Assembly: GCA_964507955.1 (NCBI GenBank)
Contig: CAZDRR010000001.1
Location: 66,650 to 130,649 of the forward strand
DNA from: an uncultured Candidatus Saccharibacteria bacterium
GTDB lineage: Bacteria; Patescibacteriota; Minisyncoccia; Phycocordibacterales; JAACPR01
Direction: 5' to 3'
DNA: 64,000 nt
A program made the translations under genes and the position numbers. Shown here one piece after another: positions 13,072-25,088 of this stretch; position 1 is the first letter of the stretch; each line of letters begins with the position of its first letter. The notes under the pieces were generated by a model that did no database searches, had not been told where the DNA came from, and saw nothing but the letters and a program-made list of their open reading frames with translations.

Positions 13072-13075
13072 TAAA

Positions 13076-13699
13076 TTAATTAGTAAAAATTGTCCAAGAC
13101 TTTTGGATAAGATTATTCATAGCAGTTATCGCTTCGGCAGAAAATGGAGCAGCATTTAAACCTCCACTTAATATACAATATCCTTCTGTGAGGCCATTTG
13201 CGTCCAGTTCTATTAAAATATTATCTATGGAGGTCAAATTATTATAAGCCAGATCCAACGACCGAACACTTTGTAAAGATTACACAAGAATAATATCGGT
13301 TAATCCGCAATTATTTGCTGCGAAAGAAGATAAATGGATTAAATTATTGATCTCCAAATATTCCAAAGGATTACCGTTTAAATTTAAATTCATTACATTT
13401 GGACAATTTTTTATTTTGATTTTAGTTAGAAGATTCAATGGAAGCATGACATCTCCTAAATATGGCAAATCTTCTAAAAAAATTTCTCCAGATAATCCTA
13501 ATTCTTCATATATAAAAGAATTAAAAAATTTATTCTTTGGAAAAGCAATGTCTCCTGCCAAAAATACCTCATTTAAGACAGAGGATATTTGGCCATAAGC
13601 AATCGGTCTAGGGAACAAATTAAAATTCTTTTTAATTTGTTCTTTTTGGAAATCGGATGCGGAAGTTCCAATAGGATTATTACCAAAATCAAGTGACAT
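13076..13699 (-). pseudogene. leucine-rich-repeat paralogue 3, split into two ORFs (13280..13699 and 13076..13258)
   Basis: The upstream ORF carries the LRR part. The downstream 60-aa ORF carries the conserved C-terminal module (LIELDANGLTEGYCILSGGLNAAPF...LIQKSWTIFTN). The two are separated by about 20 nt that contains a stop or frame break. Confidence 0.4.
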
Positions 13700-14058
13700 T
13701 GCTAAAATTGTTACACAAGAAAATCAAATTTTGTGTAAATAAGAAAGTGAGTTATCGCTTATTACAACAAGATATCCATTCTAATTTTTCGACAAATTCA
13801 GGTGTATGGTCGAATTATTATGATCAAATTTTTGCTTTATATACAGGAGCTTCTTCCATGCAGGATTTAAGCGATCATTTGATGAGAGAGTTTAATCGCA
13901 AAGTTGAAATATTGGGATTTACTAATTTAATGTTTGCCCCTTATGATGCTGGATATAGATTCATTAGCGGCTTTTATTCTGGTCCAGTAGTTAATTCGAA
14001 TGGCTTGTTCTATAATGGAGAACAATTAATGTTCAACGGTGAAGAAATTGTAATTTGA
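13693..14058 (+). CDS. hypothetical protein
   Basis: A 121 aa ORF. Confidence 0.25.
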   Translation: MTLLKLLHKKIKFCVNKKVSYRLLQQDIHSNFSTNSGVWSNYYDQIFALYTGASSMQDLSDHLMREFNRKVEILGFTNLMFAPYDAGYRFISGFYSGPVVNSNGLFYNGEQLMFNGEEIVI

Positions 14059-14069
14059 TACAAAAAAAA

Positions 14070-14089
14070 GACCTCCCTTTCGGGAGGTC
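14070..14089 (-). terminator. rho-independent terminator (hairpin plus T8 on the - strand)
   Basis: The hairpin GACCTCCC-TTTC-GGGAGGTC is followed on the - strand by TTTTTTTT. It lies just downstream of the last tRNA of the array. Confidence 0.6.
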
Positions 14090-14094
14090 AAGAG

Positions 14095-14171
14095 TGGTTG
14101 GACTAGCGGGGATCGAACCCGCATATTCTGATTCACAGTCAGAGATTTTGATCCATTTAAACTATAGTCCA
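14095..14171 (-). tRNA. tRNA-His (anticodon GTG), CCA encoded
   Basis: Acceptor TGGACTA/TAGTCCA; T-arm GCGGG-TTCGATC-CCCGC; anticodon stem TCTGA/TCAGA; loop CTGTGAA. Confidence 0.55.
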
Positions 14172-14177
14172 CATTGG

Positions 14178-14600
14178 TTAATATTGAACATATACAGCGG
14201 CCTTCTTAACTTCATAAGAATCGCCCATTCCAAGAGTGTTGATGGCGGCTTGCATTTTACCAGCATCCTTGATCGCAGGAAGATGCCCTTCCATATGAGA
14301 AATAAATTGTTGGTTATAATAGCGCATATCTTCGCGCAGCCATTTTAACTGATAATTCATTTCGGAATATACAGAAGAAATCATCGCGGATACATCGCAC
14401 ATTTTGCAACAGTCTTTACAGCAACAGTCGCTTTCTTCTTTGTCTCCTTCATTTGGAGCCATCATATCGGCCTTTGATTCATAGGAGATAATGGTTTCAT
14501 TATCTTTATTTTCCAAAGTTGCAACAAGCCCAAAATTAGCGGCGTCTTTGATTGCGGCTTCGGCAATTTCTGAATTTAGAATTTTAAATGATTGTTTCAT
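14178..14600 (-). CDS. hypothetical Cys-rich protein
   Basis: This is the ORF starting MKQSFKILNSEIAE and it contains a CCCKDCCKMC cluster. The longer reading to 14654 would overlap a tRNA, so the internal start is preferred. Confidence 0.3.
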   Translation of the reverse strand: MKQSFKILNSEIAEAAIKDAANFGLVATLENKDNETIISYESKADMMAPNEGDKEESDCCCKDCCKMCDVSAMISSVYSEMNYQLKWLREDMRYYNQQFISHMEGHLPAIKDAGKMQAAINTLGMGDSYEVKKAAVYVQY

Positions 14601-14628
14601 AGTAGAGCTTACACGTAAAAAGGGAAAT

Positions 14629-14702
14629 TGGTAGCCCCACGGTGGATCGAACACCGAACTACAGATTCAAAATCTGTTGTTTTTCCATTTAAACTACAGG
14701 GC
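14629..14702 (-). tRNA. tRNA, probably Gln (anticodon TTG)
   Basis: T-arm CGGTG-TTCGATC-CACCG; anticodon stem ACAGA/TCTGT with loop TTTTGAA. The acceptor stem needs G-U pairs. Confidence 0.4.
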
Positions 14703-14708
14703 AGTTTT

Positions 14709-14792
14709 TGGTGCGGGCAGGGGGATTTGAACCCCCGTGTGGTATTCCTGCTTGGAAGACAGGCGCAATCGACCAGACTATGCGATACCCGC
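14709..14792 (-). tRNA. tRNA (possibly Gly-TCC; long variable region)
   Basis: Acceptor GCGGGTA/TGCCCGC; T-arm GGGGG-TTCAAAT-CCCCC; CCA is encoded. Confidence 0.45.
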
Positions 14793-14986
14793 GTAACTTA
14801 TTCTAAATATTTTTCACTCTTCGTCAAGAATATTTTTCACAACATCCTTCTTTTTCAATCCACAACCATATCGAATACGGTTGAGAATTTTTCCAGAGCA
14901 ATTCGTCATACAAACAGATTCGTCTTTCAAGATACGACGAATTTGGCGATTTGTCCGATTGTGTTCTGATTTTTTAGACATAAGAT

Positions 14987-15502
14987 TTAAATAGAAAAGT
15001 ATTGACGAACTTGATCTAAAGAAATAAAAATTGAATTGTATTTGGGATAAATCACATCAACGCAACAATTTAAATATCTTTGATCGACTTTCTTCCAAGG
15101 TCCCCAACCTTTGTGGATAATATGGTTATGGGTATGTCCATGAACATTGTTTTTCCCTCGTAATTCGTCTGGATGAATCGGGCAATGAGTTAACCACATA
15201 CCCTTGTATTTCAACATTCCATGAACTTCTTCGAAAACCTCCATTTGATCTTTCGTGGAAACAAAATCACAATGATTGCCTTTAATAAGGATTTTACGTC
15301 CCTTTAAGTTGCCAAGGATATCCAATCCCTCTTTGGAAAAGGCCGCGTCTCCTAAACAATAAACAAGATCATTTTTACTAATTCTTCTATTCCAATCTTC
15401 TTGAATTAAGATTGTGTTTTCTTCGCTATTACCTACAAAATGTCTAAATTTACCGATATTTCGATGATCAAGATGTAAATCGCTGCAAATATATACGCTC
15501 AT
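14987..15502 (-). CDS. calcineurin-like metallophosphoesterase (Ser/Thr phosphatase family)
   Basis: The motifs D-x-H (SDLHLDH), GDxxD (LGDAAF), GNH (KGNHC) and HGH are present. Confidence 0.65.
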   Translation of the reverse strand: MSVYICSDLHLDHRNIGKFRHFVGNSEENTILIQEDWNRRISKNDLVYCLGDAAFSKEGLDILGNLKGRKILIKGNHCDFVSTKDQMEVFEEVHGMLKYKGMWLTHCPIHPDELRGKNNVHGHTHNHIIHKGWGPWKKVDQRYLNCCVDVIYPKYNSIFISLDQVRQYFSI

Positions 15503-16125
15503 AATTTTTTATAAAATTTTCCTTTTTTGTCAAGACACTGGTAAAATAGGTCCATCAGATCCATATCTATACCCCGAAAGGATTCCAGAGTCAAGAGTTT
15601 TGTAGGCATTTCTTTCAGTAAATAAGGATGGTAGATTGTTGTGCTGTCATACCATTTATTTTGGAGGAAGGTGAACTGATAATAGAACAAATATAGATTT
15701 GCGTTTTTCGCGTAAATTTCATTATCAAACAAGCCCCATCTTTTGGAATATTTTAAAGCCCGAGATTCACAATCTCTTTCCAAAGCAATAACATCCATTA
15801 CAGAATCAAAGTTTGAGCAATTTAATTTTTTTTGCTCCAAAAGATCCCAATAGATAAAATCGTCTTTCCATAACAAAGAATTTTCAACTGCTTGATTCAT
15901 ATGGGAGAATTCATGAACGAAAACTTGTTGAAATAAAGGATTTTTAGTTGCCACAACAATTTCTTCTCCGTCGCACCATCCAGAGCATTTTCCGCTCGGA
16001 TGACTGATATTACGGGTATTAACTAAAATAATTTTTTTATTATTTTTAGCAATATAGTTTTCGCTCCATTGAAAAAAATTTTGAAAATTTAAAGATTGTT
16101 GGGATAGGAAGCTATTTTTGTTCAC
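15499..16125 (-). CDS. hypothetical protein with HExxH motif (possible metallopeptidase)
   Basis: A 208 aa ORF containing VHEFSHM. Confidence 0.3.
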   Translation of the reverse strand: MNKNSFLSQQSLNFQNFFQWSENYIAKNNKKIILVNTRNISHPSGKCSGWCDGEEIVVATKNPLFQQVFVHEFSHMNQAVENSLLWKDDFIYWDLLEQKKLNCSNFDSVMDVIALERDCESRALKYSKRWGLFDNEIYAKNANLYLFYYQFTFLQNKWYDSTTIYHPYLLKEMPTKLLTLESFRGIDMDLMDLFYQCLDKKGKFYKKL

Positions 16126-16158
16126 ATTATATAATAATTGAAATTAGCAATTTTTCAA

Positions 16159-16234
16159 TGGTGGGAATTAAGGGAATCGAACCCTTATCTTGTCTTTAGG
16201 AAAGACTTATTCTAATCCATTATACTAAATTCCC
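16159..16234 (-). tRNA. tRNA (isotype not resolved)
   Basis: T-arm AAGGG-TTCGATT-CCCTT; acceptor GGGAATT/AATTCCC; CCA is followed by ATTTT. Confidence 0.45.
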
Positions 16235-16441
16235 ATACAAGTCAAGAAAAATGGAGGAAAACTAGGGTCCTGATCCCTATGAGTATTGTTCATACCCACC
16301 ACTTACTTTCCAAGTAAGGGCCAACACTTGCTGGCTTAGTTTTCCATTGGAGGATGATTGAACAGTCCAAGTCCATGCCTTTCAGCACACATCGTTTTCG
16401 AAACGAGTTTCCCAGCTTGGGAATTAATCATCCATTTAAAA

Positions 16442-16532
16442 TTGGAGGATCGTAATAGAATCGAACTATTATCCTAGTATTACTAGCATAGCCGAGGGTT
16501 CAAATCTCGTTTGCGGCCATTGCGCTACGATC
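16442..16532 (-). tRNA. type II tRNA (possibly Ser-TGA)
   Basis: Acceptor GGATCGT/ACGATCC; T-arm AATAG-TTCGATT-CTATT; long variable-arm hairpin CTAGTAATACTAG. Confidence 0.35.
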
Positions 16533-16538
16533 CATTTA

Positions 16539-16730
16539 TTATTCAAAAATTACTTCGTCATCATCGCCATCATTAGCAATAACGGAGGCTTTGCTTTTCT
16601 TTTCATCCCATTTGCTATAACAAACTGCTGCGCGTTGTTTATTATCGGGGAACTCTTTTGACAAATCCGCCATACAAGAACTCATAAATTCCTTTTTGGA
16701 CTGCTTTTTGGAAGGTGATTTAATAGGCAT
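16539..16730 (-). CDS. small hypothetical protein
   Basis: A 63 aa ORF lying between tRNAs. Confidence 0.2.
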   Translation of the reverse strand: MPIKSPSKKQSKKEFMSSCMADLSKEFPDNKQRAAVCYSKWDEKKSKASVIANDGDDDEVIFE

Positions 16731-16747
16731 ATTACTGTTTACACTTT

Positions 16748-16824
16748 AATAAAGAAATGGTCCTCGCAGTAGGATTCAAACCCACACAATCGCCCTTATA
16801 AAGAACGCGCTTTGTTCATCTCAG
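16748..16824 (-). tRNA. tRNA (anticodon loop TTTATAA; possibly Ile-TAT)
   Basis: Acceptor CCTCGTA/TGCGAGG; T-arm GTGGG-TTTGAAT-CCTAC; CCA encoded. Confidence 0.45.
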
Positions 16825-16829
16825 CCATA

Positions 16830-16914
16830 CGAGGAAAATTGGTAACTAAGGTGGGATTTGAACCCACAGAGGATAAATGATTTTAAGTCATTCGGTTGTC
16901 GCCATTTCCCTTAT
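16830..16914 (-). tRNA. type II tRNA, probably Leu (anticodon TAA)
   Basis: Acceptor GACTAAG/CTTAGTT; anticodon stem AATGA/TCATT with loop CTTAAAA; T-arm GTGGG-TTCAAAT-CCCAC; total length 85 nt. Confidence 0.45.
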
Positions 16915-16929
16915 CCACTTAGTCATTTT

Positions 16930-17148
16930 TTAAAATTCTATTTTCTTTGGTTTTCTAGTAATAGAGAGTTCAATTTCGAATTCATCTTGAAATTCATTTT
17001 CTCTTAAAAGAGGCCCATTGCGATGAACTTCTCCGTCGATAATAATCGTAATGTGATGACCAGACTTTGATTTACACGAAAAAGAATATTGCTCTGTTGG
17101 AGACAGTTGCATTCTATTATGAGTGCCAGAAATTAAGATCGCTTGCAT
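16930..17148 (-). CDS. small hypothetical protein
   Basis: A 72 aa ORF preceded on the - strand by TTGACT-N16-TAGATT. Confidence 0.3.
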   Translation of the reverse strand: MQAILISGTHNRMQLSPTEQYSFSCKSKSGHHITIIIDGEVHRNGPLLRENEFQDEFEIELSITRKPKKIEF

Positions 17149-17190
17149 TAGGCAAATCTAAGAGTTTTTCTGTAAAAGTCAAGAGAAAAA

Positions 17191-17269
17191 TGGTAGCCCG
17201 TGAGGAGGTCGAATCCCCAACCACAACTTTTTGAGAGTTGCCGCACTGCCACATTTAGCGTAACGGGCC
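17191..17269 (-). tRNA. tRNA (isotype not resolved)
   Basis: Acceptor GGCCCGT/ACGGGCT; anticodon stem CAACT/AGTTG; CCA encoded. Confidence 0.45.
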
Positions 17270-17278
17270 ATTGAAAAT

Positions 17279-17363
17279 TGGTGGGAAAGGTGGGATTCGA
17301 ACCCACAGAGGGTAAAAGATTCTAAATCTTTCGCTTGTCGCCAATTTCACTTATCCACTTTCC
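17279..17363 (-). tRNA. type II tRNA (possibly Leu-TAG)
   Basis: Acceptor GGGAAAG/CTTTCCC; T-arm GTGGG-TTCGAAT-CCCAC; anticodon stem AAAGA/TCTTT; length 85 nt. Confidence 0.45.
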
Positions 17364-17369
17364 CAAAAA

Positions 17370-17449
17370 TGGTGACTCTGATAGGAATCGAACCTACACT
17401 ATTAACTCTCTCAAAGTTATGCCTCTGCCTTGTGTTGGGCTACAGAGTC
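17370..17449 (-). tRNA. tRNA (isotype not resolved)
   Basis: Perfect acceptor GACTCTG/CAGAGTC; T-arm GTAGG-TTCGATT-CCTAT; anticodon stem TAACT/AGTTA. Confidence 0.45.
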
Positions 17450-18025
17450 TTTTTTTAAATTACAATCTGCGCAAAATATTTTCTTGCCATTCCAGTAAGG
17501 GCATACGGTTGGGTCCGTGCAATCAATAGCATATCCCATAATACCCTTTGACATTCCATCATTACTTTGGATTCGTATTTTGCGGAATCTCATTTTCTTG
17601 CCTTGAATAGTTTCATCGAAAGTTTCCGCTTCTCCAGACGCCCAAACAGATAAATCATGTTTGCGAAATAAATCTGCCGTTGCCTTGTCCCAACCGACTT
17701 CAAGATCAGTTTTACCTATATAGTCTTTTCTGTCAAGTCCATATGTTGAACAATAAGCTTCATTAACTTCCATCATTCGGAATTCAACTTCTCCGTCTGA
17801 TCTTACTTGGGCAACTTTGATCCACGCAGGTCTGTCAAAGGAATTTATAACACTAAAAAGCATTCCATTCAATCTTTGCACAGATATATTTGTATGTTGT
17901 TTTATTTCATTGATTTTATTGTCAAATCGCCCTTTAAGCTTAAAATAGGTAAAAAGTAATGCGGACAACTGCCCCCCGATTGAAACGACCAACTCCGTGA
18001 TTTGTCCACTATCCATAATGGACAT
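17417..18025 (-). CDS. membrane-anchored protein with PAS-like domain
   Basis: An N-terminal hydrophobic helix (ITELVVSIGGQLSALLFTYF) is followed by a PAS-like segment (MMEVNEAYCSTYGLDRKDYIGKTDLEV). The 3' end overlaps the predicted tRNA at 17370..17449. Confidence 0.3.
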   Translation of the reverse strand: MSIMDSGQITELVVSIGGQLSALLFTYFKLKGRFDNKINEIKQHTNISVQRLNGMLFSVINSFDRPAWIKVAQVRSDGEVEFRMMEVNEAYCSTYGLDRKDYIGKTDLEVGWDKATADLFRKHDLSVWASGEAETFDETIQGKKMRFRKIRIQSNDGMSKGIMGYAIDCTDPTVCPYWNGKKIFCADCNLKKDSVAQHKAEA

Positions 18026-18147
18026 TATTACACAAAAAAACTAACGGAAATCATTAGGTTTTTTAAAAAAATGGAGGCTATATAGAGAATCCAACTCTAA
18101 TTTCATCATTACGAAAGATGTATAATCGCATTATATCATATAGCCAT

Positions 18148-18222
18148 TGGTAGGGGATCAGGGAGTCGAACCCTGTGGTGGCAGTTTGTAGGACTGCTGC
18201 CCAACCGTAGAGCATATCCCCC
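18148..18222 (-). tRNA. tRNA (possibly Val-TAC)
   Basis: T-arm CAGGG-TTCGACT-CCCTG; acceptor GGGGGAT/ATCCCCT; anticodon stem GCAGT/ACTGC. Confidence 0.4.
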
Positions 18223-18230
18223 ATTAAAAT

Positions 18231-18305
18231 TGGACGCGCCGACACGAATCGAACGTGCGTAATGCTCTTTTGCAGAGAGTTGAGTAGCCATTCCCCCACA
18301 GCGCG
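18231..18305 (-). tRNA. tRNA (possibly Cys-GCA)
   Basis: Acceptor CGCGCTG/CGGCGCG; T-arm CACG-TTCGATT-CGTG. Confidence 0.4.
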
Positions 18306-18313
18306 ATAAAAAT

Positions 18314-18392
18314 TGGCCCGCGTAGGTCGGAATCGAACCGACTATTTAACTCGTTTTGGAGGCGAGTTGCAACCGCCACTTGCTGCTACGGG
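18314..18392 (-). tRNA. tRNA, probably Trp (CCA) with an unusual anticodon loop
   Basis: D-arm GCAA-GTGGCGG-TTGC; T-arm GTCGG-TTCGATT-CCGAC. The anticodon stem ACTCG/CGAGT encloses a 9-nt loop, CCTCCAAAA. Confidence 0.35.
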
Positions 18393-18640
18393 ATGAAAAA
18401 TTTAAAAGAGTGGAGTCCGTAACTTTTTCTTGGCAGAATGAGGTTTAGACAGTGACTCCGCATGGGCTACTTTGGTCGTTTCGGTTCCACCCGAATTAAG
18501 ATTTCTCAACTTGTTACTGGACACCAACGCGCCTTTCCATGACTGGCTTACAAACTTCGCCGCTTTCGCTCTCTTTTAAAATTGGTGGAGAATATGCAAA
18601 ACACTTTATTAAAATTTTGTTTTGCAGTGTAAAGATTATT

Positions 18641-19138
18641 ATGAACCTTAAAGAACAAATTCGACAATATAAATTAGAAAATCCCGATAAAGGTTATGCC
18701 TCTATTGCAAAACATTTTAATTTAAAATCTCATAATTCTGTTAGATATCATTTAGACGATGCTGTTAAAATTAATATATTAAAATCGTCTAAACAATCTA
18801 GGCAGCGTAATGTATTAAAATTAAAAATCAAACAAAGTATTAAAGAGTCTAAAAAACAGGGAGTTATATCCGATTCATTTAATGATTTATTTAAATATTT
18901 TTCTACCCAAGAACCTATTTGTAATTTATCTGGTGTAAAATTTAATATCAATGATTCTTCTGCTTATGAATTAGATCATAAAATTCCTTATTCTCGCGGA
19001 GGAACCAATCAAAAAGAAAATTTGCAATTTACTATTAAATCTGTTAATCGCGCAAAACATTCTTTATTAGAAGAAGAATTTGTGTCTTTATGTAACGCAG
19101 TATCTAAATTTATGGGAAATGGACACAACGAGAATTGA
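18641..19138 (+). CDS. HNH homing endonuclease (start taken at the internal Met; the ORF extends to 18539)
   Basis: HNH motif YELDHKIPYSRGGTNQKENLQFTIKSVNRAKH. This is a + strand gene embedded in the - strand tRNA array. Confidence 0.55.
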   Translation: MNLKEQIRQYKLENPDKGYASIAKHFNLKSHNSVRYHLDDAVKINILKSSKQSRQRNVLKLKIKQSIKESKKQGVISDSFNDLFKYFSTQEPICNLSGVKFNINDSSAYELDHKIPYSRGGTNQKENLQFTIKSVNRAKHSLLEEEFVSLCNAVSKFMGNGHNEN

Positions 19139-19535
19139 ACTCGCCACACCGACATTGCAAGTGTCAGTCGCCCCCAAGGAACATGTGCGCCCATATATTG
19201 CCGTGAGAACCCTAAGCCTGATCTCTCGCATCATAATCAGCAATCAGGCGTGTTACTGATCTCTTGTGCTTTACGGCGAAATTGGCGGTCCATAGGGGGA
19301 ACGATCCCCTTCCTCAAGATTGACAATCTAGTGATGCTTCCTTTACACTAATGGACCTTAAAATTTATTAAAATTGGTAATTGGTTATGCCCTTTGACCG
19401 AGGGGGTGTGTTCTTATCTTACAGAACGACGTTGGATATGCTACCTATTCGTTCGGGCGGCTCCTTAAATTTACTTTGTCGATCCGATGCATATTAGATC
19501 GACTTTTCAACGATAAGACCAACTCTAACCAAAAC

Positions 19536-19610
19536 TGGTAGGCAGTGGGGGAATTGAACCCGCCGTCTCTTGATTCGTATTCAAGTATTCTTCCGTTATA
19601 CTAACCGCCC
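19536..19610 (-). tRNA. tRNA-Arg (anticodon ACG)
   Basis: D-stem GTAT/ATAC; anticodon stem CTTGA/TCAAG with loop ATACGAA; CCA encoded. Confidence 0.5.
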
Positions 19611-19623
19611 ATTGAAAATTGTT

Positions 19624-19698
19624 TGGAGGCACGATGGAGAGTCGAACTCCAGTATCACCCATACCAAGGGTGTATAATAACCGTTATATGATCGAGCC
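19624..19698 (-). tRNA. tRNA-Thr (anticodon GGT)
   Basis: Anticodon stem CACCC/GGGTG with loop TTGGTAT; T-arm TGGAG-TTCGACT-CTCCA. Confidence 0.45.
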
Positions 19699-19701
19699 AT
19701 T

Positions 19702-19773
19702 TGGTCGGATACTTGAGAATCGAACTCAACTGATCTTGCTCCCAAAGCAAGCGCATCGCCAGTCTGCCTGTAT
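19702..19773 (-). tRNA. tRNA-Pro (anticodon TGG)
   Basis: Acceptor CGGATAC/GTATCCG; anticodon stem CTTGC/GCAAG with loop TTTGGGA. Confidence 0.45.
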
Positions 19774-19779
19774 CCGTTA

Positions 19780-19858
19780 AATTGGTGCGAGTAGTGAGAT
19801 TCGAACTCACGATCATTCTTCGTTGGCAACGAAGTGCAATGGACCACTATGCGACACT
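19780..19858 (-). tRNA. tRNA-Gly (anticodon GCC)
   Basis: Acceptor GCGAGTG/TACTCGC; anticodon stem CTTCG/CGAAG with loop TTGCCAA; T-arm GTGAG-TTCGAAT-CTCAC; CCA encoded. Confidence 0.55.
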
Positions 19859-20243
19859 CGCAAAAAACTCTCCGAATTACGCATTGTAAAGAGGCGCGGA
19901 GAGTATGAAAATTGTTTCTATGCCTTGAGATTACAGGCTAGGGCGATCAACCATTCACAAGATTATTAGAAGACATTCCAAGCCCCCACTTCCTTGCTTA
20001 TCCACTACCTCTCGATAGTTGTCAATCAATGACGCTGTTTTATATACCGTTAGCTATTACGGTTTACCGCTTGCCATACTCAACCTTCGTTAATTCTTCG
20101 GGGTATGCCTACCGCGAATAAATTCCCTTAGATTAAACGCCTTGTGCCTTGCGGGCCAAGGTTCGCACAGAATTATCTTTCGATTTCTGTATTAGTCACC
20201 TTTCTGGCTTTCGGGGTCGCAACTTTTGCTTTTTATATATTAT

Positions 20244-20343
20244 GACATTCCCTTGAATGGAACCGCTTTATCCAGTTAAGCTACCCGCTCCGACAAAGCA
20301 TAAGCTGTCTGCTCTGTTGGCGAGCGGGACAGGAATCGAACCT
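20244..20343 (-). ncRNA. rearranged tRNA-like locus: 3' half (T-arm, acceptor, CCA) lies upstream of a matching 5' half (acceptor, D-arm, anticodon arm with loop ATTCAAG, anticodon TCA)
   Basis: On the - strand the order is GCAGG-TTCGATT-CCTGT, then CCCGCTC-G-CCA, then a 24-nt spacer, then GAGCGGG-TA-GCTT-AACTGGATA-AAGC-G-GTTCC-ATTCAAG-GGAAT. The two acceptor strands are perfectly complementary, but the halves are in permuted order. Confidence 0.35.
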
Positions 20344-22993
20344 GCATCTGATATATGGAAACCTACATTCATGTGTGCGACCTCGCTGCTTCCAAAATCT
20401 CTCGAAATTAGAAATACAACACACGAATTAACCTCTCTCTCGCGAGTTCAGTATCATCCCCAAGACTTCCCTTGATATAATCACAGGTTGCCTCGAAAAT
20501 ATGCCGTTCGCCTTTGCATCTCTGCTCTGACTTATGGCTACCCTTTGGGATTCATGCTTTCGAACCAAATTAAGTTTCCCTTTCAGGACCGATTACACCG
20601 TTGGCCTCACCGTTTTACTCTCAATGACCCGTAGGCTTCAACAACATAAGTTTTGATTTGCTCATATTGCCGATTCCCTTGGCTTGCTTGGTGGACTGCT
20701 TTTATACAGTGGGCGGCGTAGGACACCTTATCCCTTTCCCCGAATCACTTCGGGATTATCCAGTAATGCCCCCAAGCGGGCAGAATTTTTAAAATGTTAA
20801 AGAACTTTTTGTATCGCACCTTCGAAGCTTTGCATCGTCGGCTGATGTTTAGGACTATATCTGGTTTTCAGATTTTGTCAACAGGTTTTTTGAAAATTTT
20901 ACGGTTGTCTTGGCTAAGACAACCAAATAAGGTTGTTTAAAGATGGAGAAGATTGGATTCAAACCAATTCGGCATTTACTTTCCAGCCTGCCGTATTGCT
21001 GGAGTCAGTTACAGACGTATGCACGATTATAGCCCACGGGAGCAATCAACAGATCTAACCCATAAAACTAGACCAGTCTTCCGAGCCGCGCTGGTTTCGG
21101 GTATGTCTCACCACACTGCTTCTCCTAAAATTTGGTCCTCCCGACTCGCATCGAACGAGTAATTTGCAATTATCAGTCGCAGGTTATGGCCGTTTTAACT
21201 ACAGGAGGTAAGCGCCAAACTGGTTCGCATATTAAGAGGCGTTTTGGCGACTGTCAAGAAAAAGTTGGTTGGACCAGAGAATTGCGACATCTCAGCCTTC
21301 CGCTTATCGGGCGGATGCTCTTCCTTTGAGCTATGGTCCAATGAAAATTGTGCTACCAGAGTGGGAATCGAACCCACACAACTCCCGAGTTTTATCCTGA
21401 GTCGAACAGGATTCCCTTGGTATTGGCCAAGGGGTAGCACCAGCTACTTCTCGCAGCATTAAAATGGAGGCCCATTGGTGACATGCACACCACTATCTAG
21501 GTTACAAATCTAGCGCATCGCTATCTATGCTTATAGGCCATGAAATTTGGCTGTGAGACAGGGACTTTCACCACTCCGATCATTCTTGCAAGAGAAACTG
21601 TTGATCGCGCTATAATTCGCTTCCCACAATTGAAAATGGAGGAAGGCTGAGAACTTGAATCCCATGAGAGTATTAGTCCCACAATCTCGTTAGCACCGAG
21701 TTCTAGTCGCCTGACCAGTTAACCTTCCATAAAATGGTCGCTTGTCTCCGAATCGAACGGAATTATTTCGGGCTTCAACCGAACGCACTGTCACCAGACC
21801 TGCCCACAAGCGTAAAAATTGGCTCCTCACCTTCGAATCGAACGAAGCTCGTTGGCTATTACTAGCTTACAGCTTAACAGGCTGCCCGCACTCCTTGTGC
21901 GTTGTGAGGATTTATATATGAAAATTTTTGGTGCTGTCTCTCTCGCCGTCTCTCTCGCGGGTCAAAGGCTTACGACCTTTCCCACGTATCGTTTTAAGTT
22001 AACGCTAGTTATTTAAAAATGATAAGTCGTCCTCCCCCTTATCTTGCATTAAGTTTTTCCCCACAATTTTACGTTTTCTTATGTTTTACCGTTATGGTTC
22101 TTACGGGCAATGCTTCATTCAACTCTAATATGCTTCCATATTTTCAACCCGTAGAGGATTTAAGTTCTATGTTTCAAATTGGTGCAAGACACGGGAGTTG
22201 AACCCGCACGATATTCGGGTAAGAGCCGAATGCCCGTAGCCGAATGCCCGTCCACTGTGGCTTATCTTGCATAAAAATGGTCAGGGTGGAGGGTAATGCT
22301 CCCACTTCTACTGGTTAAAAGCCAGTGGCTTCACTATTAAAGCTTCACCCCGTTACAAAACAACAAGTGGATTGTAAAAGCCCACATTACTCCCTCCTAC
22401 GGAAGCGTCCTAACACTTAAACGATTGTTGTTAAAAGATTAATTAGCAGTAGAAAGCATTACTACGCCATTTCAGTTTATTGGATTTTATTTGTCAGGGA
22501 ATTTGTGACCTGATTTTATAATCAATATTCTTGATGGATGGATCACAATCTCCATTCTCCAACGTATCTTTCCTGTAGCAATTCGCGGACTGCTAAAATG
22601 GTGCGTGCCGTGGGATTCGCACCCACTCAGACTTATTTGTATGCCGCAAGGTTACAGCTTGCTTTGCTCTCTCAGGCTAGGACACGCATAAAACAAACAG
22701 GGGTGTCCTGCCACTAGACGACGATCAACATCATTGAATCGACAGGAATCGAACCTGTGTCTCCCCTTAGACTTATAAATTGGTCGCTCCCCTTAGATCG
22801 GACTCATGAAATCCAACGCCTGCGCAGCGAGGAGCGTTTGAAAAGATTAGTCAAACTGTGGAACGACCACAAACCTTCGTTAGAGGCGAGAACTAACGGA
22901 TTCGAACCGACAGCAGCCTGCCTTTTTCTCTGTTTGACTAAAAGTGGAGGCGGCACGGTGATGTAACCGTGAATCATCCGCCATTGAAAAATT

Positions 22994-23075
22994 GGTAGGA
23001 CGAGAGGGATTCGAACCCTCACTAATTCCTCGTTATGAGCGAGGTCCAGCACCATTACTGGTTGTCGGCCAATTG
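22994..23075 (-). tRNA. tRNA-like (Met/Ile2-type anticodon arm CCTCG-CTCATAA-CGAGG); acceptor pairing imperfect
   Basis: A T-arm (GAGGG-TTCGAAT-CCCTC), a D-arm (CCAG/CTGG) and a CAT anticodon arm are all present. The acceptor strands do not pair cleanly. Confidence 0.3.
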
Positions 23076-23222
23076 AAAATTTTCTGTTGAGAGTGTGAGT
23101 TCCACTCTGTTATGGCTATTTAGTCACCGTCACGATTCATCATCGTCGCTTGCATCGTTCTCAGCTACAACAGAAAATAAAAATTGGTTGCAGAAGTTAG
23201 ATTCGAACTAACGATTTTCACC

Positions 23223-23660
23223 TTATGAGGATGACGAGATGGCCGCTTCTCTATTCTGCTTTTTTAAATATTTAATTGCGGACTCAAGGCTAAAAATATT
23301 ATCAAAAAAATGCCCTAATCCTAAATTGCAATGGTTACAAATCCATCCTCTAAATTTATTAGAAGAATGACAGTGGTCTAATTGGAGATTAGAATGTTTT
23401 CCGCAGATTTCGCAATTTAAGGGTTTTTCAGTTATTTGGTTTTTATTTTGTAAAAAAGAATAACCGTGTAAAAAAGTCTTCTCAGGATTTTTCTTTTTCC
23501 ATTTTTCAGAATATTGAATTTGTTTTTTGCTATTTTTGGGATACCAAACTTCTTTGACATATTTATTATGGCATTCCTTGCAATAAGATCGGGGTTTTCC
23601 TCTATTAAGCGAAAAATTATCTATAGATTTTAATTGGCCACATTTTGAACATTCTTTCAT
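23223..23660 (-). CDS. HNH endonuclease of the endonuclease-VII-like type with N-terminal zinc ribbon
   Basis: N-terminal zinc-ribbon pattern CSKCGQLKSIDNF...CKEC. EndoVII-like motif LDHCHSSNKFRGWICNHCNLGLG. Confidence 0.6.
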   Translation of the reverse strand: MKECSKCGQLKSIDNFSLNRGKPRSYCKECHNKYVKEVWYPKNSKKQIQYSEKWKKKNPEKTFLHGYSFLQNKNQITEKPLNCEICGKHSNLQLDHCHSSNKFRGWICNHCNLGLGHFFDNIFSLESAIKYLKKQNREAAISSSS

Positions 23661-23878
23661 AAGAAGAATTACACAATACTCTCATAAATACTCTCATAAT
23701 TTTAGAATAATCTAAAACAAACGACCAACGTGCTACCCTTACACTATATTCCCGATTAAGAGAGTCCAGATTCGAACTGGTCTTTTGGTTAAGTCATGCG
23801 CCAATATGCTTCCATTACACCTAATGCCCGTAGTGGACAATGCCGAATCGAACGGCCCCTTTGACTGAATTTGTAAAA

Positions 23879-23955
23879 TTGGCACTCCCAGCGGGAATCA
23901 AACCCTGCGTTTCATGATTGAAAGTCATGTGTCCTGCTCGACTAGACGATGGGAG
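23879..23955 (-). tRNA. tRNA-Glu (anticodon TTC)
   Basis: Acceptor GCTCCCA/TGGGAGT; anticodon stem CATGA/TCATG with loop CTTTCAA; T-arm CAGGG-TTTGATT-CCCGC (4 of 5 positions pair). Confidence 0.5.
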
Positions 23956-24332
23956 CATTGAAATTTAGGCATCTCGCCAGCGGTCATTACGAGTGATTAG
24001 CTCGTCTGGAGCCGCCAGTGACACCACGGTTTTTGTTTTTAGCGAAATCACTCGCGAATACAAGAACCTTGAAAATTTATCGGATGAACCCTAAAACCGA
24101 ACATTACTGCTCAAGGCTTATTGGTCCTACTAGGGTCCGAAAACTCCTAGAAGTTTCTACAAACGCTCTTGTTTCCCCCAACTTGTTCTCTCAAGATTGG
24201 CTTCACAGTCATCACTGTCCCCTTTCGGTCTTAGCGGGTTCTGGCCCTCGCTGCCGTCGATGTTTCAAACTCTACAGATTTTTCCGAATTCGTCAACAGA
24301 TTTTTTCGGAAATTTCTCTTTTCTACAGAAAA

Positions 24333-24355
24333 CCCTCACTTTTTTAGGGTGAGGG
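24333..24355 (-). terminator. hairpin terminator downstream of the HD-domain gene
   Basis: CCCTCAC-N9-GTGAGGG, followed on the - strand by TTTTCTG. Confidence 0.4.
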
Positions 24356-24512
24356 CGTAAAAAACCAAGGATTTCTCGCCCTACAATTATCCTTGCGCCC
24401 ACTCGCAATTGAGGGGACTCACAGATTTGGTTGTTGGGATAAAATATCGCATTGCTTTATTGCTTACTCTTAATCATAAAATAGGGAAATTATTTTTCAA
24501 CTTTTTTCTTGA

Positions 24513-25088
24513 TTATTTGCTAATTCCCCCATGCGCACTCAAAACATCGGCTTGATGGATAATCAAAGCTTCTAAAGAATTTGGTGCAATTGGAGAACCC
24601 CATTCTCTAACAGGACCATGGTGGGAAAGAATAATATGTTTGATTCTGTTTATGAAATTTTCGCTAACATTATGTTTTTTTGCTATTGCGACAAACTCTA
24701 TCGCTCCATCAATAATATGAGTATGCTCGGCATCTTGACCTATTCCTTTAACAAAAAATTTGTCCTGATAAGGTAGAAATCTTTGTTTGGGAATTGGAAA
24801 ATTCGCTATAGAATACTCTTTTATTTTTAAGAAGTCGTGAAAAAGACACCCGACTCCAAGAATATCTTTATTAACGGGATGGATGTGTTTAATATTGGCA
24901 ATTTCTTCGGCTATATTCCAAACTTCCAATGTATGAGCGGCTAATCCCCCGACATAAGCATGGTGAAAACTTAATGATGCAGGAAAAATAAAAAAGTCAG
25001 GATTCGACAAGACTTCCGCACATGTCTCTTGTAGAGTAGGAGACGTAATCAGATCAACTTTTCTTATGAATTCGTCTTTGATGTTCAT
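24513..25088 (-). CDS. HD-domain phosphohydrolase
   Basis: H...HD...H...D pattern (FHHAYVGGLAAHTLEV, LFHDFLK, HIILSHHG). Confidence 0.55.
   Translation of the reverse strand: MNIKDEFIRKVDLITSPTLQETCAEVLSNPDFFIFPASLSFHHAYVGGLAAHTLEVWNIAEEIANIKHIHPVNKDILGVGCLFHDFLKIKEYSIANFPIPKQRFLPYQDKFFVKGIGQDAEHTHIIDGAIEFVAIAKKHNVSENFINRIKHIILSHHGPVREWGSPIAPNSLEALIIHQADVLSAHGGISK

What the first reader, a model, noticed from the sequence alone, without database searches (positions are those of the whole stretch)
19860..22700. GC-richer, ORF-free structured blocks interrupting the tRNA array (candidate introns or novel ncRNAs)
Between recognisable tRNAs the array contains several 300-500 nt blocks that are visibly GC-richer than the flanking phage DNA. 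They have no credible ORFs and many short perfect stems. Three blocks stand out:
- 19860-20243, which ends directly at the anomalous TCA tRNA half;
- 20480-20950, which contains the stem CCCGAA-TCAC-TTCGGG;
- 21960-22600.
Several contain isolated T-arm-like or D-arm-like hairpins without a matching acceptor, for example two T-arm-like hairpins around 21360-21420. This pattern fits self-splicing group I introns inserted into tRNA genes, which are known for some bacterial tRNA-Leu/fMet/Arg genes and are expected in a genome this rich in homing endonucleases. It also fits one or more phage-encoded structured RNAs of unknown function. The six-frame ORFs in this span (e.g. 20257-20475, 20953-21162, 21819-22016) are short and overlap tRNA-like elements, so they are probably not coding.
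Basis: partly seen in the sequence, partly recalled or inferred. Interest (0 to 1): 0.7.

Follow-up and report, generated by a model that had tools for sequence, protein, structure and literature searches.

The report
GOLLD RNA in phage tRNA array
Two of the three "mystery blocks" are the two halves of one ~930-nt GOLLD RNA, a known giant cage-forming phage RNA of unknown function, here in a variant whose central linker holds a conserved, circularly permuted tRNA look-alike; there are no introns, and the third block is mostly tRNA genes that default tools miss.

Summary
Everything lies on the minus strand. Blocks 1 and 2 and the "TCA tRNA half" between them are one GOLLD RNA gene (about 20847-19922).

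- **Promoter:** its own sigma-70-type promoter at 20881-20854.
- **5' domain:** block 2.
- **Linker:** a circularly permuted tRNA-like module.
- **3' domain:** block 1. Rfam GOLLD, full model, 120 bits, E 2e-32, below the gathering score of 150.
- **3' end:** an abiF-motif-like hairpin with a U-run (19903-19861).

Two related phage contigs (L100, L160) carry the same GOLLD, with compensatory changes in the 5' domain and in the permuted cloverleaf (14 of 29 pairs). No group I or II intron model matches, even at E≤10.

Block 3 is heterogeneous. It holds three non-canonical tRNA genes (Lys-CUU, Lys-UUU, Tyr), two unconserved spacers at background GC that fold no better than shuffles, and one conserved ~80-nt hairpin RNA (22008-21929) found in five phage tRNA arrays.

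GOLLD inside tRNA arrays, sometimes with a tRNA in its linker, is already published. I found no description of three things: the conserved permuted tRNA-like linker with an internal GCCA, the orphan abiF-like hairpin, and the 80-nt element.

The parts
20854..20881 (-). Sigma-70-type promoter of the GOLLD gene (TTGACA, 16 nt, TATAGT)
   Evidence: Best promoter-like site in 13.5-24.6 kb, 11 of 12 matches. The region 20899-20866 is 91% identical in L160. L100 has TTGACA..TAAAGT at the same place.
20373..20847 (-). Includes the GNRA hairpin 20754-20739 followed by GAAAGG, and the terminal hairpin 20424-20373 (GUGUGUUGUAUUU...GAAGCAGCGAGGUCGCACAC).
   Evidence: The descriptor (GNRA hairpin + GAAAGG + hairpin + GCAAKC) occurs once in the window and 0 times in 200 shuffles. 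It sits at the same distance from the 3' domain as in the GOLLDs of L002, L003 and L008. The domain aligns with L100 and L160. RNAalifold predicts 114 pairs, 28 of them with compensatory changes. The start is inferred from the promoter.
20247..20345 (-). Circularly permuted tRNA-like module in the GOLLD linker. Order: T-arm 20345-20329, acceptor 3' strand + GCCA 20328-20318, capping hairpin 20317-20293, acceptor 5' strand 20290-20284, D-arm 20281-20265, anticodon-like arm 20263-20247 (loop AUUCAAG).
   Evidence: The MFE fold gives this cloverleaf. Re-joining the halves in normal order gives a perfect cloverleaf by ARAGORN at default settings. The same module is in L100 and L160. Across the three, 29 pairs are 97.7% paired, 14 pairs have compensatory changes, slid controls reach at most 51%, and 0 of 500 shuffles match. 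Weak Rfam YrlA hit (37.6 bits), which has the same arm order.
19922..20232 (-).
   Evidence: Rfam RF02032, model positions 1-416, 120.3 bits, E 2.3e-32. Orthologues score 126.9 bits in L100 and 138.2 bits in L160. DNA identity is 74-76% over 893-1057 nt.
19861..19903 (-). abiF-motif-like hairpin (19903-19867) plus U-run, ending at the first base of tRNA-Gly(GCC). Probable terminator or processing hairpin.
   Evidence: Rfam RF03085, 39.5 bits against a gathering score of 37. Single copy in the window. Orthologous hairpins with a compensatory outer stem are in L160 (25.1 bits) and L100 (22.8 bits, elsewhere in that array).
21929..22008 (-). Conserved ~80-nt hairpin RNA of unknown function: an invariant 5' box CUAGCGUUAACUUAAAACGA, a variable hairpin, and a purine-rich 3' box ending RCCA
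   Evidence: Present in L100, L223, L224 and L225, always inside a tRNA array. 8 of 10 pairs of the central hairpin show compensatory changes; the outer pairs never vary. No Rfam match.
22180..22687 (-). Rest of block 3: tRNA-Lys(CUU) 22180-22270 with a 14-nt tandem duplication, tRNA-Lys(UUU) 22278-22352, an unconserved spacer 22353-22598, and tRNA-Tyr(GUA) 22599-22687
   Evidence: Relaxed ARAGORN. Rfam tRNA 37.7 bits at 22281-22352. Spacer: z = -0.34, GC 0.362, no match in relatives.
21209..21728 (-). Non-canonical tRNA genes between the blocks: 21269-21340, 21350-21438 (two T-arm-like hairpins), 21465-21539 Thr(UGU), 21637-21728 Ser(GCU). Also an internal promoter at 21257-21229.
   Evidence: Rfam tRNA 47.6 and 35.1 bits, tRNA-Sec model 30.3 bits. 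Relaxed ARAGORN. Promoter 10 of 12 matches; its region is conserved in L160 and L100.
20944..21125 (-). tRNA-like element (7-bp acceptor stem, D-arm, T-arm) with a ~110-nt insertion; unexplained
   Evidence: Fold. ARAGORN calls it only when introns are allowed. No intron family matches. Absent in L160, where tRNA-Ile(GAU) abuts the GOLLD promoter.

Best explanation
The span is a stretch of a phage tRNA operon region on the minus strand that contains a full GOLLD RNA gene.

**Shown**
- A strong sigma-70-type promoter (20881-20854) precedes about 930 nt of non-coding sequence.
- The 3' third of that sequence matches the GOLLD covariance model end to end.
- The 5' half has the order and covarying helices of GOLLD 5' domains.
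- The linker between them is a conserved, circularly permuted tRNA-like cloverleaf. Its order is T-arm, acceptor 3' strand, GCCA, capping hairpin, acceptor 5' strand, D-arm, anticodon-like arm.
- The gene ends at an abiF-motif-like hairpin with a U-run that abuts tRNA-Gly.

**Inferred from published cryo-EM of homologues**
- The RNA folds into two domains and self-assembles into a closed homo-oligomeric cage of 10 to 14 copies.
- The linker, and so the tRNA-like module, points into the cavity.

**My inference on function (weak)**
- The anticodon loop is not conserved (UCA, AUC, AUU in the three relatives), and the phage uses TGA as a stop codon. So the module is not a decoding or suppressor tRNA.
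- It is more likely a tRNA mimic, shown in many copies, that engages tRNA-binding factors such as processing enzymes, the CCA-adding enzyme, or host tRNA-targeting defence nucleases.
- The capped acceptor end would keep RNase P and 3' trimming from cutting the GOLLD in two, or would control that cut.

**The rest of the span:** ordinary and non-canonical tRNA genes, plain spacers, one lineage-specific tRNA-like element with an insertion, and one conserved 80-nt hairpin RNA.
For: - GOLLD model 1-416 matched at 19922-20316(-), 120.3 bits, E 2.3e-32.
- Orthologous GOLLDs in the syntenic phage contig L100 (126.9 bits) and in L160 (138.2 bits), 74-76% identical over 893-1057 nt.
- Best promoter-like site of the region directly upstream.
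- The 5'-domain descriptor is unique in the window, with 0 hits in 200 shuffles.
- 28 of 114 predicted 5'-domain pairs have compensatory changes.
- Permuted cloverleaf: 14 of 29 pairs compensatory, 97.7% paired against at most 51% in slid controls.
- The de-permuted sequence is a perfect cloverleaf.
- TGA ends 29 of 75 ORFs, and the longest ORFs lengthen only slightly if TGA is read as sense.
- The 72-aa ORF is not conserved.
- Literature: GOLLD lies in phage and prophage tRNA arrays, sometimes with a tRNA in its linker, and forms nanocages.
Against: - The Rfam score is below the curated gathering score (120.3 against 150), as it is for both orthologues.
- One 3'-domain helix (model positions about 229-261) is missing.
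- Rfam aligned model positions 1-20 to the capping hairpin. In L100 the equivalent model positions aligned to the homologue of the hairpin at 20424-20373, so I take that hairpin as the true counterpart.
- A sequence-only HMM of other GOLLD 5' domains did not find block 2.
- Only three members of this subfamily were found.
- There are no expression, end-mapping or assembly data.
- The functional part is inference only.
Confidence: 0.9

Rival explanations
1. The blocks are self-splicing group I (or group II) introns inserted in tRNA genes.
For: Homing-type endonuclease genes sit inside the array: HNH at 18539-19138 and Endonuclease VII at 23223-23660. With introns allowed, ARAGORN can force intron-containing tRNA models at 20318-20527, 20944-21125 and 21352-21590.
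Against: No intron family matches at E≤10 or at E≤0.05 over 12 kb. Blocks 1 and 2 match GOLLD and have their own promoter. The tRNA halves next to block 1 are in permuted order and pair with each other across a 25-nt hairpin. The insertion in 20944-21125 is about 93-110 nt, shorter than bacterial tRNA group I introns (over 200 nt, from my own knowledge).
Confidence: 0.02
2. The permuted tRNA halves in the GOLLD linker are a neutral relic of a tandem tRNA duplication followed by loss of the outer halves, with no function of their own.
For: Tandem duplication gives a complementary 3' half and 5' half for free. A degenerate acceptor-like AGCGAGG lies upstream (sequence). Many GOLLDs have no tRNA in the linker, and some have an ordinary one.
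Against: All five helices, including the capping hairpin, are kept through compensatory changes in three phages. The flanking HD-domain protein is only 55% identical between the window and L100. GCCA, the D-loop GG, the T-loop and the cap loop ..AGCUUA are conserved.
Confidence: 0.1
3. The module is a working opal-suppressor or recoding tRNA(UCA) made from a permuted gene.
For: The de-permuted sequence is a perfect cloverleaf with anticodon UCA and an encoded CCA. Another GOLLD (L036) has a UUA-anticodon tRNA in its linker.
Against: The anticodon loop reads AUAUCAC in L100 and AUAUUAA in L160. TGA ends 29 of 75 ORFs, and reading TGA as sense lengthens the longest ORFs only slightly (654 to 719 aa, 360 to 410 aa). 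No bacterial pathway is known that rejoins a tRNA broken in the variable loop (my own knowledge).
Confidence: 0.03
4. The hairpin at 19903-19867 is simply the intrinsic terminator of GOLLD, and its match to the abiF motif is chance. The alternative is that it is an orphan abiF-type antitoxin RNA that the phage uses as a decoy against host AbiF toxins.
For: - Terminator: a stem followed by six U, placed at the end of GOLLD in both the window and L160.
- Decoy: 39.5 bits, above Rfam's cut-off. abiF is the only family hit by the orthologues. abiF-motif RNA neutralises AbiF by direct binding (PMC12373285). No Abi_2 gene was found among the ORFs of at least 250 aa.
Against: - Against decoy: the orthologues score only 22.8-25.1 bits. 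The 3' part of the loop that matches the abiF consensus is not conserved. There is a single copy, whereas RCd22 has two.
- Against pure chance: the outer stem covaries, and GCGCCUCU and GCGUAAUUCGG are invariant in three phages. In L100 the hairpin sits away from GOLLD.
Confidence: 0.5
5. The whole span is only decayed tRNA pseudogenes and plain spacers.
For: This holds for parts of block 3. The spacers 22009-22179 and 22353-22598 have background GC, fold like shuffles and have no match in relatives. Several tRNA-like genes are aberrant.
Against: GOLLD (E 2e-32), the abiF-like hairpin and the 80-nt element are conserved with covariation.
Confidence: 0.03

Closest known systems
GOLLD RNA (Rfam RF02032), e.g. 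env-38 GOLLD (14-mer cage) and Streptococcus agalactiae GOLLD (12-mer)
   Same: - Full-length match to the 3'-domain model.
- Signature motifs: AAAGCAAAAGU, GAAAG..CUAAU, CGCAAG, GAGUA, GUGGAUAAG..GGAA..AUAAUC, GUAAUCUCA.
- A variable 5' domain of about 450 nt plus a linker, for a total above 800 nt.
- A phage genome, inside a tRNA array.
   Different: - The score is under the gathering cut-off (120 against 150).
- One helix is missing.
- The linker holds a permuted tRNA-like module, not an ordinary tRNA or plain spacer.
- Assembly was not tested.
Mycobacterial tRNA-array GOLLD with an embedded tRNA-Phe or pseudo-tRNA and a neighbouring HNH endonuclease
   Same: GOLLD inside a large tRNA cluster together with homing-type endonuclease genes, and a tRNA-like sequence in the J13/15 linker.
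   Different: In those cases the embedded tRNA is in normal order. Here the halves are swapped, the acceptor end is capped by a conserved hairpin, and GCCA is internal.
Circularly permuted tRNA genes of Cyanidioschyzon merolae and some archaea (my own knowledge: Soma et al. 2007)
   Same: The 3' half (T-arm, acceptor 3' strand, CCA region) lies upstream of the 5' half, joined by a short intervening sequence.
   Different: Those genes are processed through a bulge-helix-bulge splicing step and a circular intermediate into working tRNAs. Here the break is in the variable loop and is continuous with two large GOLLD domains. No such machinery is known in bacteria, and the anticodon is not conserved.
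YrlA / bacterial Y RNA tRNA-like domain (Rfam RF02553), and two-piece (permuted) tmRNA
   Same: The same strand order, T-arm then acceptor-like hairpin then D-arm. Weak hits to YrlA (37.6 bits) and, in L160, to the permuted tmRNA models.
   Different: Far below the gathering scores (69, 47). No Ro-binding helix, rsr gene or tag reading frame. Here an anticodon-like arm and GCCA are also kept.
abiF motif RNA (Rfam RF03085; RCd22 antitoxin of AbiF in C. difficile, PMC12373285)
   Same: A hairpin with the conserved loop GCCUCU..AC.AUGC and bulge AA.UCGG, scoring above the gathering cut-off and followed by a U-run.
   Different: No abiF/Abi_2 gene downstream (tRNA-Gly follows). One copy instead of two. 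The orthologues score below the cut-off.
ROOL RNA (the other cage-forming phage RNA found near tRNA islands)
   Same: The same genomic niche, and a cage with an interior linker.
   Different: No ROOL match in the window at the gathering score. No ROOL match in 13000-25000 at E≤0.05 or in 19700-23300 at E≤10.

Membership tests
GOLLD RNA (RF02032) | Statistically significant, end-to-end match to the family covariance model | tested here: met
   Model positions 1-416, 120.3 bits, E 2.3e-32 in a 3.6-kb search and 7.6e-32 in a 12-kb search.
GOLLD RNA (RF02032) | Score at or above Rfam's curated gathering score (150 bits) | tested here: not met
   120.3 bits. The orthologues score 126.9 (L100) and 138.2 (L160), while the other GOLLDs found here score 180-226. 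Part of the shortfall is a misaligned first hairpin and one missing helix.
GOLLD RNA (RF02032) | Two-domain build: a conserved 3' domain, a variable 5' domain of about 400-450 nt, and a variable linker | tested here: met
   The 5'-domain motif order and position match L002, L003 and L008. The 5' domain covaries with L100 and L160. Total length is about 930 nt.
GOLLD RNA (RF02032) | Phage or prophage location in or beside a tRNA array, often with a tRNA in the linker | tested here: met
   30 or more tRNA genes at 14.1-24.0 kb on the same strand. Tail, lysozyme and ThyX genes are nearby. Literature.
GOLLD RNA (RF02032) | Homo-oligomeric nanocage assembly; expression rising at lysis | not testable with these tools
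   Needs cryo-EM or SEC of the transcript, and RNA-seq of infected cells.
Group I intron in a tRNA gene | Match to the group I core (RF00028) | tested here: not met
   No hit at E≤10 over 19700-23300 with permissive filters.
Group I intron in a tRNA gene | Insertion in the anticodon loop, between exon halves in normal 5'-to-3' order | tested here: not met
   At block 1 the halves are permuted and separated by a 25-nt hairpin. The insertion in 20944-21125 is only about 93-110 nt.
abiF motif RNA (RF03085) | Score at or above the gathering score (37 bits) | tested here: met
   39.5 bits at 19903-19867. The orthologues score only 25.1 and 22.8 bits.
abiF motif RNA (RF03085) | Lies upstream of an abiF / Abi_2 toxin gene, usually as part of a type-III-like toxin-antitoxin unit | tested here: not met
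   tRNA-Gly follows directly. No Abi_2 domain in 20 ORFs scanned against Pfam, which cover all ORFs of at least 250 aa. Smaller ORFs and the rest of the genome were not scanned.
Permuted tRNA gene (C. merolae type) | The 3' half is upstream of the 5' half, and the two re-form a complete cloverleaf | tested here: met
Permuted tRNA gene (C. merolae type) | Processed through a circular intermediate into a mature, decoding tRNA | not testable with these tools
   This looks unlikely: the anticodon is not conserved and the break is continuous with the GOLLD domains.
YrlA (RF02553) | Score at or above the gathering score (69 bits), plus a Ro-binding helix | tested here: not met
   37.6 bits. The outer helices are marked as non-pairing in the alignment.

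The most novel reading that the evidence does not exclude
A lineage of phage GOLLD RNAs carries a conserved, circularly permuted tRNA in the linker that faces the cage interior. Its acceptor end, with an internal GCCA, is capped by a conserved hairpin. To my knowledge this would be the first permuted tRNA-like gene reported in a bacterial virus.

It would work in one of two ways:
- As a multivalent tRNA mimic: a decoy or dock for tRNA-binding enzymes or for host tRNA-targeting defence nucleases.
- As a controlled RNase P / 3'-trimming site that splits GOLLD into two pieces held together by the tRNA fold, exposing a CCA end inside the cage.

That the module is real and under selection is well supported. 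The function is open.
Probability: 0.3. Interest if true: 0.75.

Novelty: new variant of a known kind. Interest (0 to 1): 0.5.

Why it matters
GOLLD has had no known function since 2009. In 2025 its homologues were shown to form RNA-only cages, with the linker in the cavity.

- **A handle on GOLLD function.** This subfamily replaces the linker with a selected tRNA look-alike: the fold, GCCA and cap are kept, and the anticodon is free to drift. That suggests a specific experiment: which tRNA-binding factor does it engage, and is it cut by RNase P?
- **An annotation gap.** The subfamily scores 120-138 bits against Rfam's cut-off of 150. Annotation at the gathering threshold therefore misses it, and default tRNA finders miss about a third of this array's tRNA genes.
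- **Two small leads.** The orphan abiF-like hairpin is a possible anti-AbiF decoy. The 80-nt array-associated hairpin RNA is also cheap to test.

Tried and rejected
- **GenBank phages.** blastn (distant mode) of the whole span matched only tRNA pieces.
- **First GOLLD motif patterns.**
  - The strict pattern gave 0 loci in viral contigs.
  - The relaxed pattern gave few true GOLLDs in viral contigs, metagenomes and genomes. All 31 genome hits were chance, by nhmmer.
- **Relatives via ThyX.** 25 viral loci, none with a tRNA array next to ThyX and none with GOLLD.
- **Relatives via other routes.**
  - The 208-aa array ORF gave none.
  - The exact-protein look-up returned only the source assembly, 100% identical, so no variation.
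- **Sequence-only HMM of other GOLLD 5' domains against the window:** no hit. The 5' domain was recognised only through structure, motif order and the two close relatives.
- **Last viral scans for more subfamily members.** GAAGCAGCGAGGTCGCACAC gave 0 hits. GTTGAAGCCTACGGGTC gave only L160 plus a chance coding match, L226.
- **Covariance model of the 80-nt element:** no further copies in 0.94 Mb of held loci.
- **Suppressor-tRNA and TGA-recoding idea:** rejected.
- **Coding potential of the 72-aa ORF:** rejected.
- **Source accession look-up:** no name returned.
Full report
**1. Orientation and the observation**

The tRNA array lies on the minus strand, from about 14.1 to 24.0 kb. Within the finding's span, default ARAGORN sees only tRNA-Ile(GAU) 21133-21208, tRNA-Phe 21735-21812 and tRNA-Asn 21820-21910. 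That is why long "empty" blocks appear.

GC content:

| Region | GC |
|---|---|
| Window outside the array | 0.361 |
| 95th percentile of 400-nt windows outside the array | 0.422 |
| Block 1 | 0.422 |
| Block 2 | 0.431 |
| Block 3 | 0.404 |

No ORF in the span exceeds 81 aa.

**2. Blocks 1 and 2 are one GOLLD RNA gene**

A permissive Rfam scan of 19700-23300 gave a full-length match (model positions 1-416) to GOLLD, RF02032, at 19922-20316(-). The score is 120.3 bits and E = 2.3e-32, below the curated gathering score of 150. The alignment shows the family's signature motifs: AAAGCAAAAGU, GAAAGGUGACUAAU, CGCAAG, GAGUA, GUGGAUAAG...GGAA...AUAAUC and GUAAUCUCA.

Upstream evidence:
- The best sigma-70-type promoter-like site in 13.5-24.6 kb (TTGACA, 16 nt, TATAGT, 11 of 12 matches) lies at 20881-20854(-). 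This puts the start near 20847.
- GOLLD RNAs have a conserved 3' domain and a variable 5' domain. I collected other GOLLDs by motif scans (L002, L003/L018, L008, L022, L029, L036).
- Their 5' domains share an ordered set of features: a GNRA-capped hairpin, GAAAGG, a second hairpin, GCAAKC, and a terminal hairpin GUG..GCAUU..AGCACGUC.
- A descriptor of the first four features occurs exactly once in the 64-kb window, at 20738(-), and never in 200 shuffles. It sits 507 nt upstream of the 3'-domain anchor, against 434-465 nt in L002, L003 and L008.
- A sequence-only HMM of those 5' domains did not find block 2, so that evidence is structural.

**3. Relatives settle it**

GenBank phages hold nothing similar. 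The window's own assembly recurs only as identical copies. Two relatives were found.

- **L100.** Through homologues of the HD-domain protein next to the array, I reached a syntenic 145.6-kb metagenomic phage contig. It has the order NADAR, ThyX, HD, HNH, then a tRNA array. L100 carries a GOLLD at about 18375-19310, scoring 126.9 bits with E = 6.7e-34.
- **L160.** A viral-contig scan with GTGGATAANNNNGGAAN{5,35}ATAATC gave about 45 more GOLLD 3' domains by nhmmer. Among them was this second close relative (138.2 bits).

What the relatives show:
- The window's 20810-19779 aligns to L160 at 76% over 1057 nt. Its 20806-19922 aligns to L100 at 74% over 893 nt.
- On the three 5' domains, RNAalifold predicts 114 pairs, 28 of them with compensatory changes.
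- The GOLLD gene folds better than its shuffles, though weakly supported: z = -2.5 on only 20 shuffles, one of which folded at least as well.
- The 72-aa plus-strand ORF inside it has in-frame stops in L100 and is split between two reading frames in L160.
- In L100, Rfam aligned model positions 6-60 to GUGUGUUGUAUUU...GAAGCAGCGAGGUCGCACAC. The same sequence is at 20424-20373 in the window. In the window Rfam had instead aligned model positions 1-20 to another hairpin. I take this as part of the reason the score is low.

**4. The "TCA tRNA half" is part of a conserved, circularly permuted tRNA-like module**

Between the two domains the RNA reads, in order:
- T-arm GCAGG-UUCGAUU-CCUGU
- acceptor 3' strand CCCGCUC
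- GCCA
- an 8-bp capping hairpin
- acceptor 5' strand GAGCGGG
- D-arm
- anticodon-like arm GUUCC-AUUCAAG-GGAAU

These span 20345-20247. The MFE fold gives exactly this. Re-joining the halves in normal order gives a perfect cloverleaf at ARAGORN's default settings.

L100 and L160 have the same module at the same place, with different helix sequences:

| Feature | Window | L100 | L160 |
|---|---|---|---|
| Acceptor stem | CCCGCUC/GAGCGGG | CUGGCCC/GGGCCAG | CUCCCCC/GGGGGAG |
| T-arm | GCAGG/CCUGU | CCCCG/CGGGG | GCUGG/CCAGC |
| Anticodon-like loop | AUUCAAG | AUAUCAC | AUAUUAA |

Counted on the alignment, 29 pairs are 97.7% paired and 14 have compensatory changes. Slid controls reach at most 51%, and 0 of 500 shuffles reach the observed values. 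GCCA, the D-loop GG, the T-loop and the cap loop ..AGCUUA are conserved.

The "anticodon" is not conserved. The phage ends 29 of 75 ORFs with TGA, and reading TGA as sense lengthens the longest ORFs only slightly (654 to 719 aa, 360 to 410 aa). So this is a selected tRNA-shaped structure, not a suppressor tRNA.

Among the other distinct GOLLDs I hold, about six have an ordinary tRNA in the linker. The rest have none that ARAGORN or my permuted-tRNA script detected. Published work mentions ordinary tRNAs or a pseudo-tRNA in the linker. I found no paper that links GOLLD with a permuted or tRNA-like module, or permuted tRNAs with phages of bacteria.

**5. The 3' end**

Nineteen nucleotides after the last GOLLD hairpin lies a hairpin that matches the abiF motif (RF03085) at 39.5 bits, against a gathering score of 37. 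Six U follow, and then tRNA-Gly(GCC) begins.

- It is a single copy in the window.
- Orthologous hairpins exist in L160, in the same position (25.1 bits), and in L100, near the start of that array (22.8 bits). The outer stem is compensatory and the segments GCGCCUCU and GCGUAAUUCGG are invariant.
- abiF-motif RNA is the antitoxin of AbiF (PMC12373285).
- No Abi_2 gene is among the window's ORFs of at least 250 aa.
- It may be only a terminator, or it may be an antitoxin decoy. I leave this open.

**6. Block 3 and the stretches between blocks**

With relaxed thresholds, most GC-rich pieces turn out to be non-canonical tRNA genes:
- 21269-21340
- Thr(UGU) 21465-21539
- Ser(GCU) 21637-21728
- Lys(CUU) 22180-22270, with a 14-nt tandem duplication
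- Lys(UUU) 22278-22352
- Tyr(GUA) 22599-22687

The two real spacers:
- 21911-22183 has z = -0.50; 22353-22598 has z = -0.34.
- GC is 0.37 and 0.36.
- They have no counterpart in the relatives, with one exception.

The exception is 22008-21929. It consists of an invariant 22-nt box, a hairpin whose sequence differs in every relative, and a purine-rich box ending RCCA.
- It recurs in L100 and in three further phage tRNA arrays (L223-L225).
- 8 of 10 hairpin pairs show compensatory changes. The outer pairs never vary, so they say nothing either way.
- No Rfam family matches it.
- A covariance model built from it finds no more copies in 0.94 Mb of held loci.

The element 20944-21125 has a 7-bp acceptor stem, a D-arm, a T-arm and an insert of about 110 nt. 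It is absent from L160, where tRNA-Ile abuts the GOLLD promoter. I cannot explain it.

**7. Introns**

No group I or group II intron family appears at E≤10 in 19700-23300 or at E≤0.05 in 13000-25000. The intron reading is not supported.

**8. How it most likely works**

Shown here:
- the gene anatomy
- its conservation
- the covariation

Taken from the literature:
- GOLLD homologues assemble into closed 10-, 12- or 14-mer cages, with the linker inside.
- GOLLD rises during phage lysis.
- Embedded tRNAs have been proposed to be stored or shielded in the cage.

Inferred:
- In this lineage the interior displays many copies of a tRNA mimic.
- Its acceptor/CCA end is capped, which would block or gate RNase P and 3' trimming that would otherwise cut GOLLD in two.
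- A role as a dock or decoy for tRNA-binding factors is my best guess, held weakly.

**9. Verdict**

A real feature, correctly spotted, but the explanation is a known RNA class rather than introns. It is a divergent GOLLD subfamily with a previously undescribed (as far as I could check) permuted tRNA-like linker. Two small conserved RNA elements nearby are worth a follow-up.

Noticed in passing
window 21929-22008 (-); L100 14621-14701; L223 838-918; L224 7211-7289; L225 5888-5966: A conserved ~80-nt element inside phage tRNA arrays. It has an invariant box CUAGCGUUAACUUAAAACGA, a hairpin that covaries (8 of 10 pairs), and a purine-rich box ending RCCA followed by AUUUUCA, like the tRNA 3' ends. 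There is no Rfam family and the function is unknown.
   Followed up: partly
window 19861-19903 (-); L160 13185-13221; L100 12284-12321: An orphan abiF-motif-like hairpin (39.5 bits, above Rfam's cut-off) with no Abi_2 gene found nearby. It is conserved in two related phages, where it scores lower. It could be a phage decoy of the AbiF RNA antitoxin, or only a terminator.
   Followed up: partly
window 22705-22758 (-), flanks to about 22690-22790: A second module in permuted order (T-arm, short acceptor-like hairpin, D-arm, closed by GGGG/CCCC from the flanks; a YrlA-like order). Its T-arm is 91% identical to the T-arm in the GOLLD linker (family D5). No CCA, and no Rfam hit.
   Followed up: no
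window 20944-21125 (-): A tRNA-like element with a 7-bp acceptor stem, D-arm and T-arm, and a ~110-nt insertion where the anticodon and variable region should be. It is lineage-specific: absent in L160.
   Followed up: partly
window 23957-24296 (-): Another GC-rich (0.44-0.47), ORF-poor block at the head of the array. It starts with promoter 24296-24269, then a 57-nt leader (24264-24208) that is 91% identical to L100 12134-12190, then about 250 nt before tRNA-Glu. No Rfam hit.
   Followed up: no
window 22180-22270 (-): tRNA-Lys(CUU) carries a 14-nt tandem duplication (GGGCATTCGGCTAC) in the D/anticodon region. It is possibly a pseudogene.
   Followed up: no
window 14.1-24.0 kb (-): Nearly every tRNA gene encodes its CCA, followed by AUUUU(C)A. 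This is probably a shared processing signal between the genes of the array.
   Followed up: no
L036 855-926: Another GOLLD has, in its linker, an ordinary-order tRNA with anticodon UUA (ochre-suppressor type).
   Followed up: no
window 18539-19138 (+) and 23223-23660 (-): HNH and Endonuclease VII genes sit inside the tRNA array. This is the same pairing of tRNA cluster, GOLLD and HNH reported for mycobacterial arrays.
   Followed up: no
window 19922-20316; L100 18809-19310; L160 13244-13747: This GOLLD subfamily scores 120-138 bits, under Rfam's gathering score of 150. Annotation at that threshold will miss it.
   Followed up: yes
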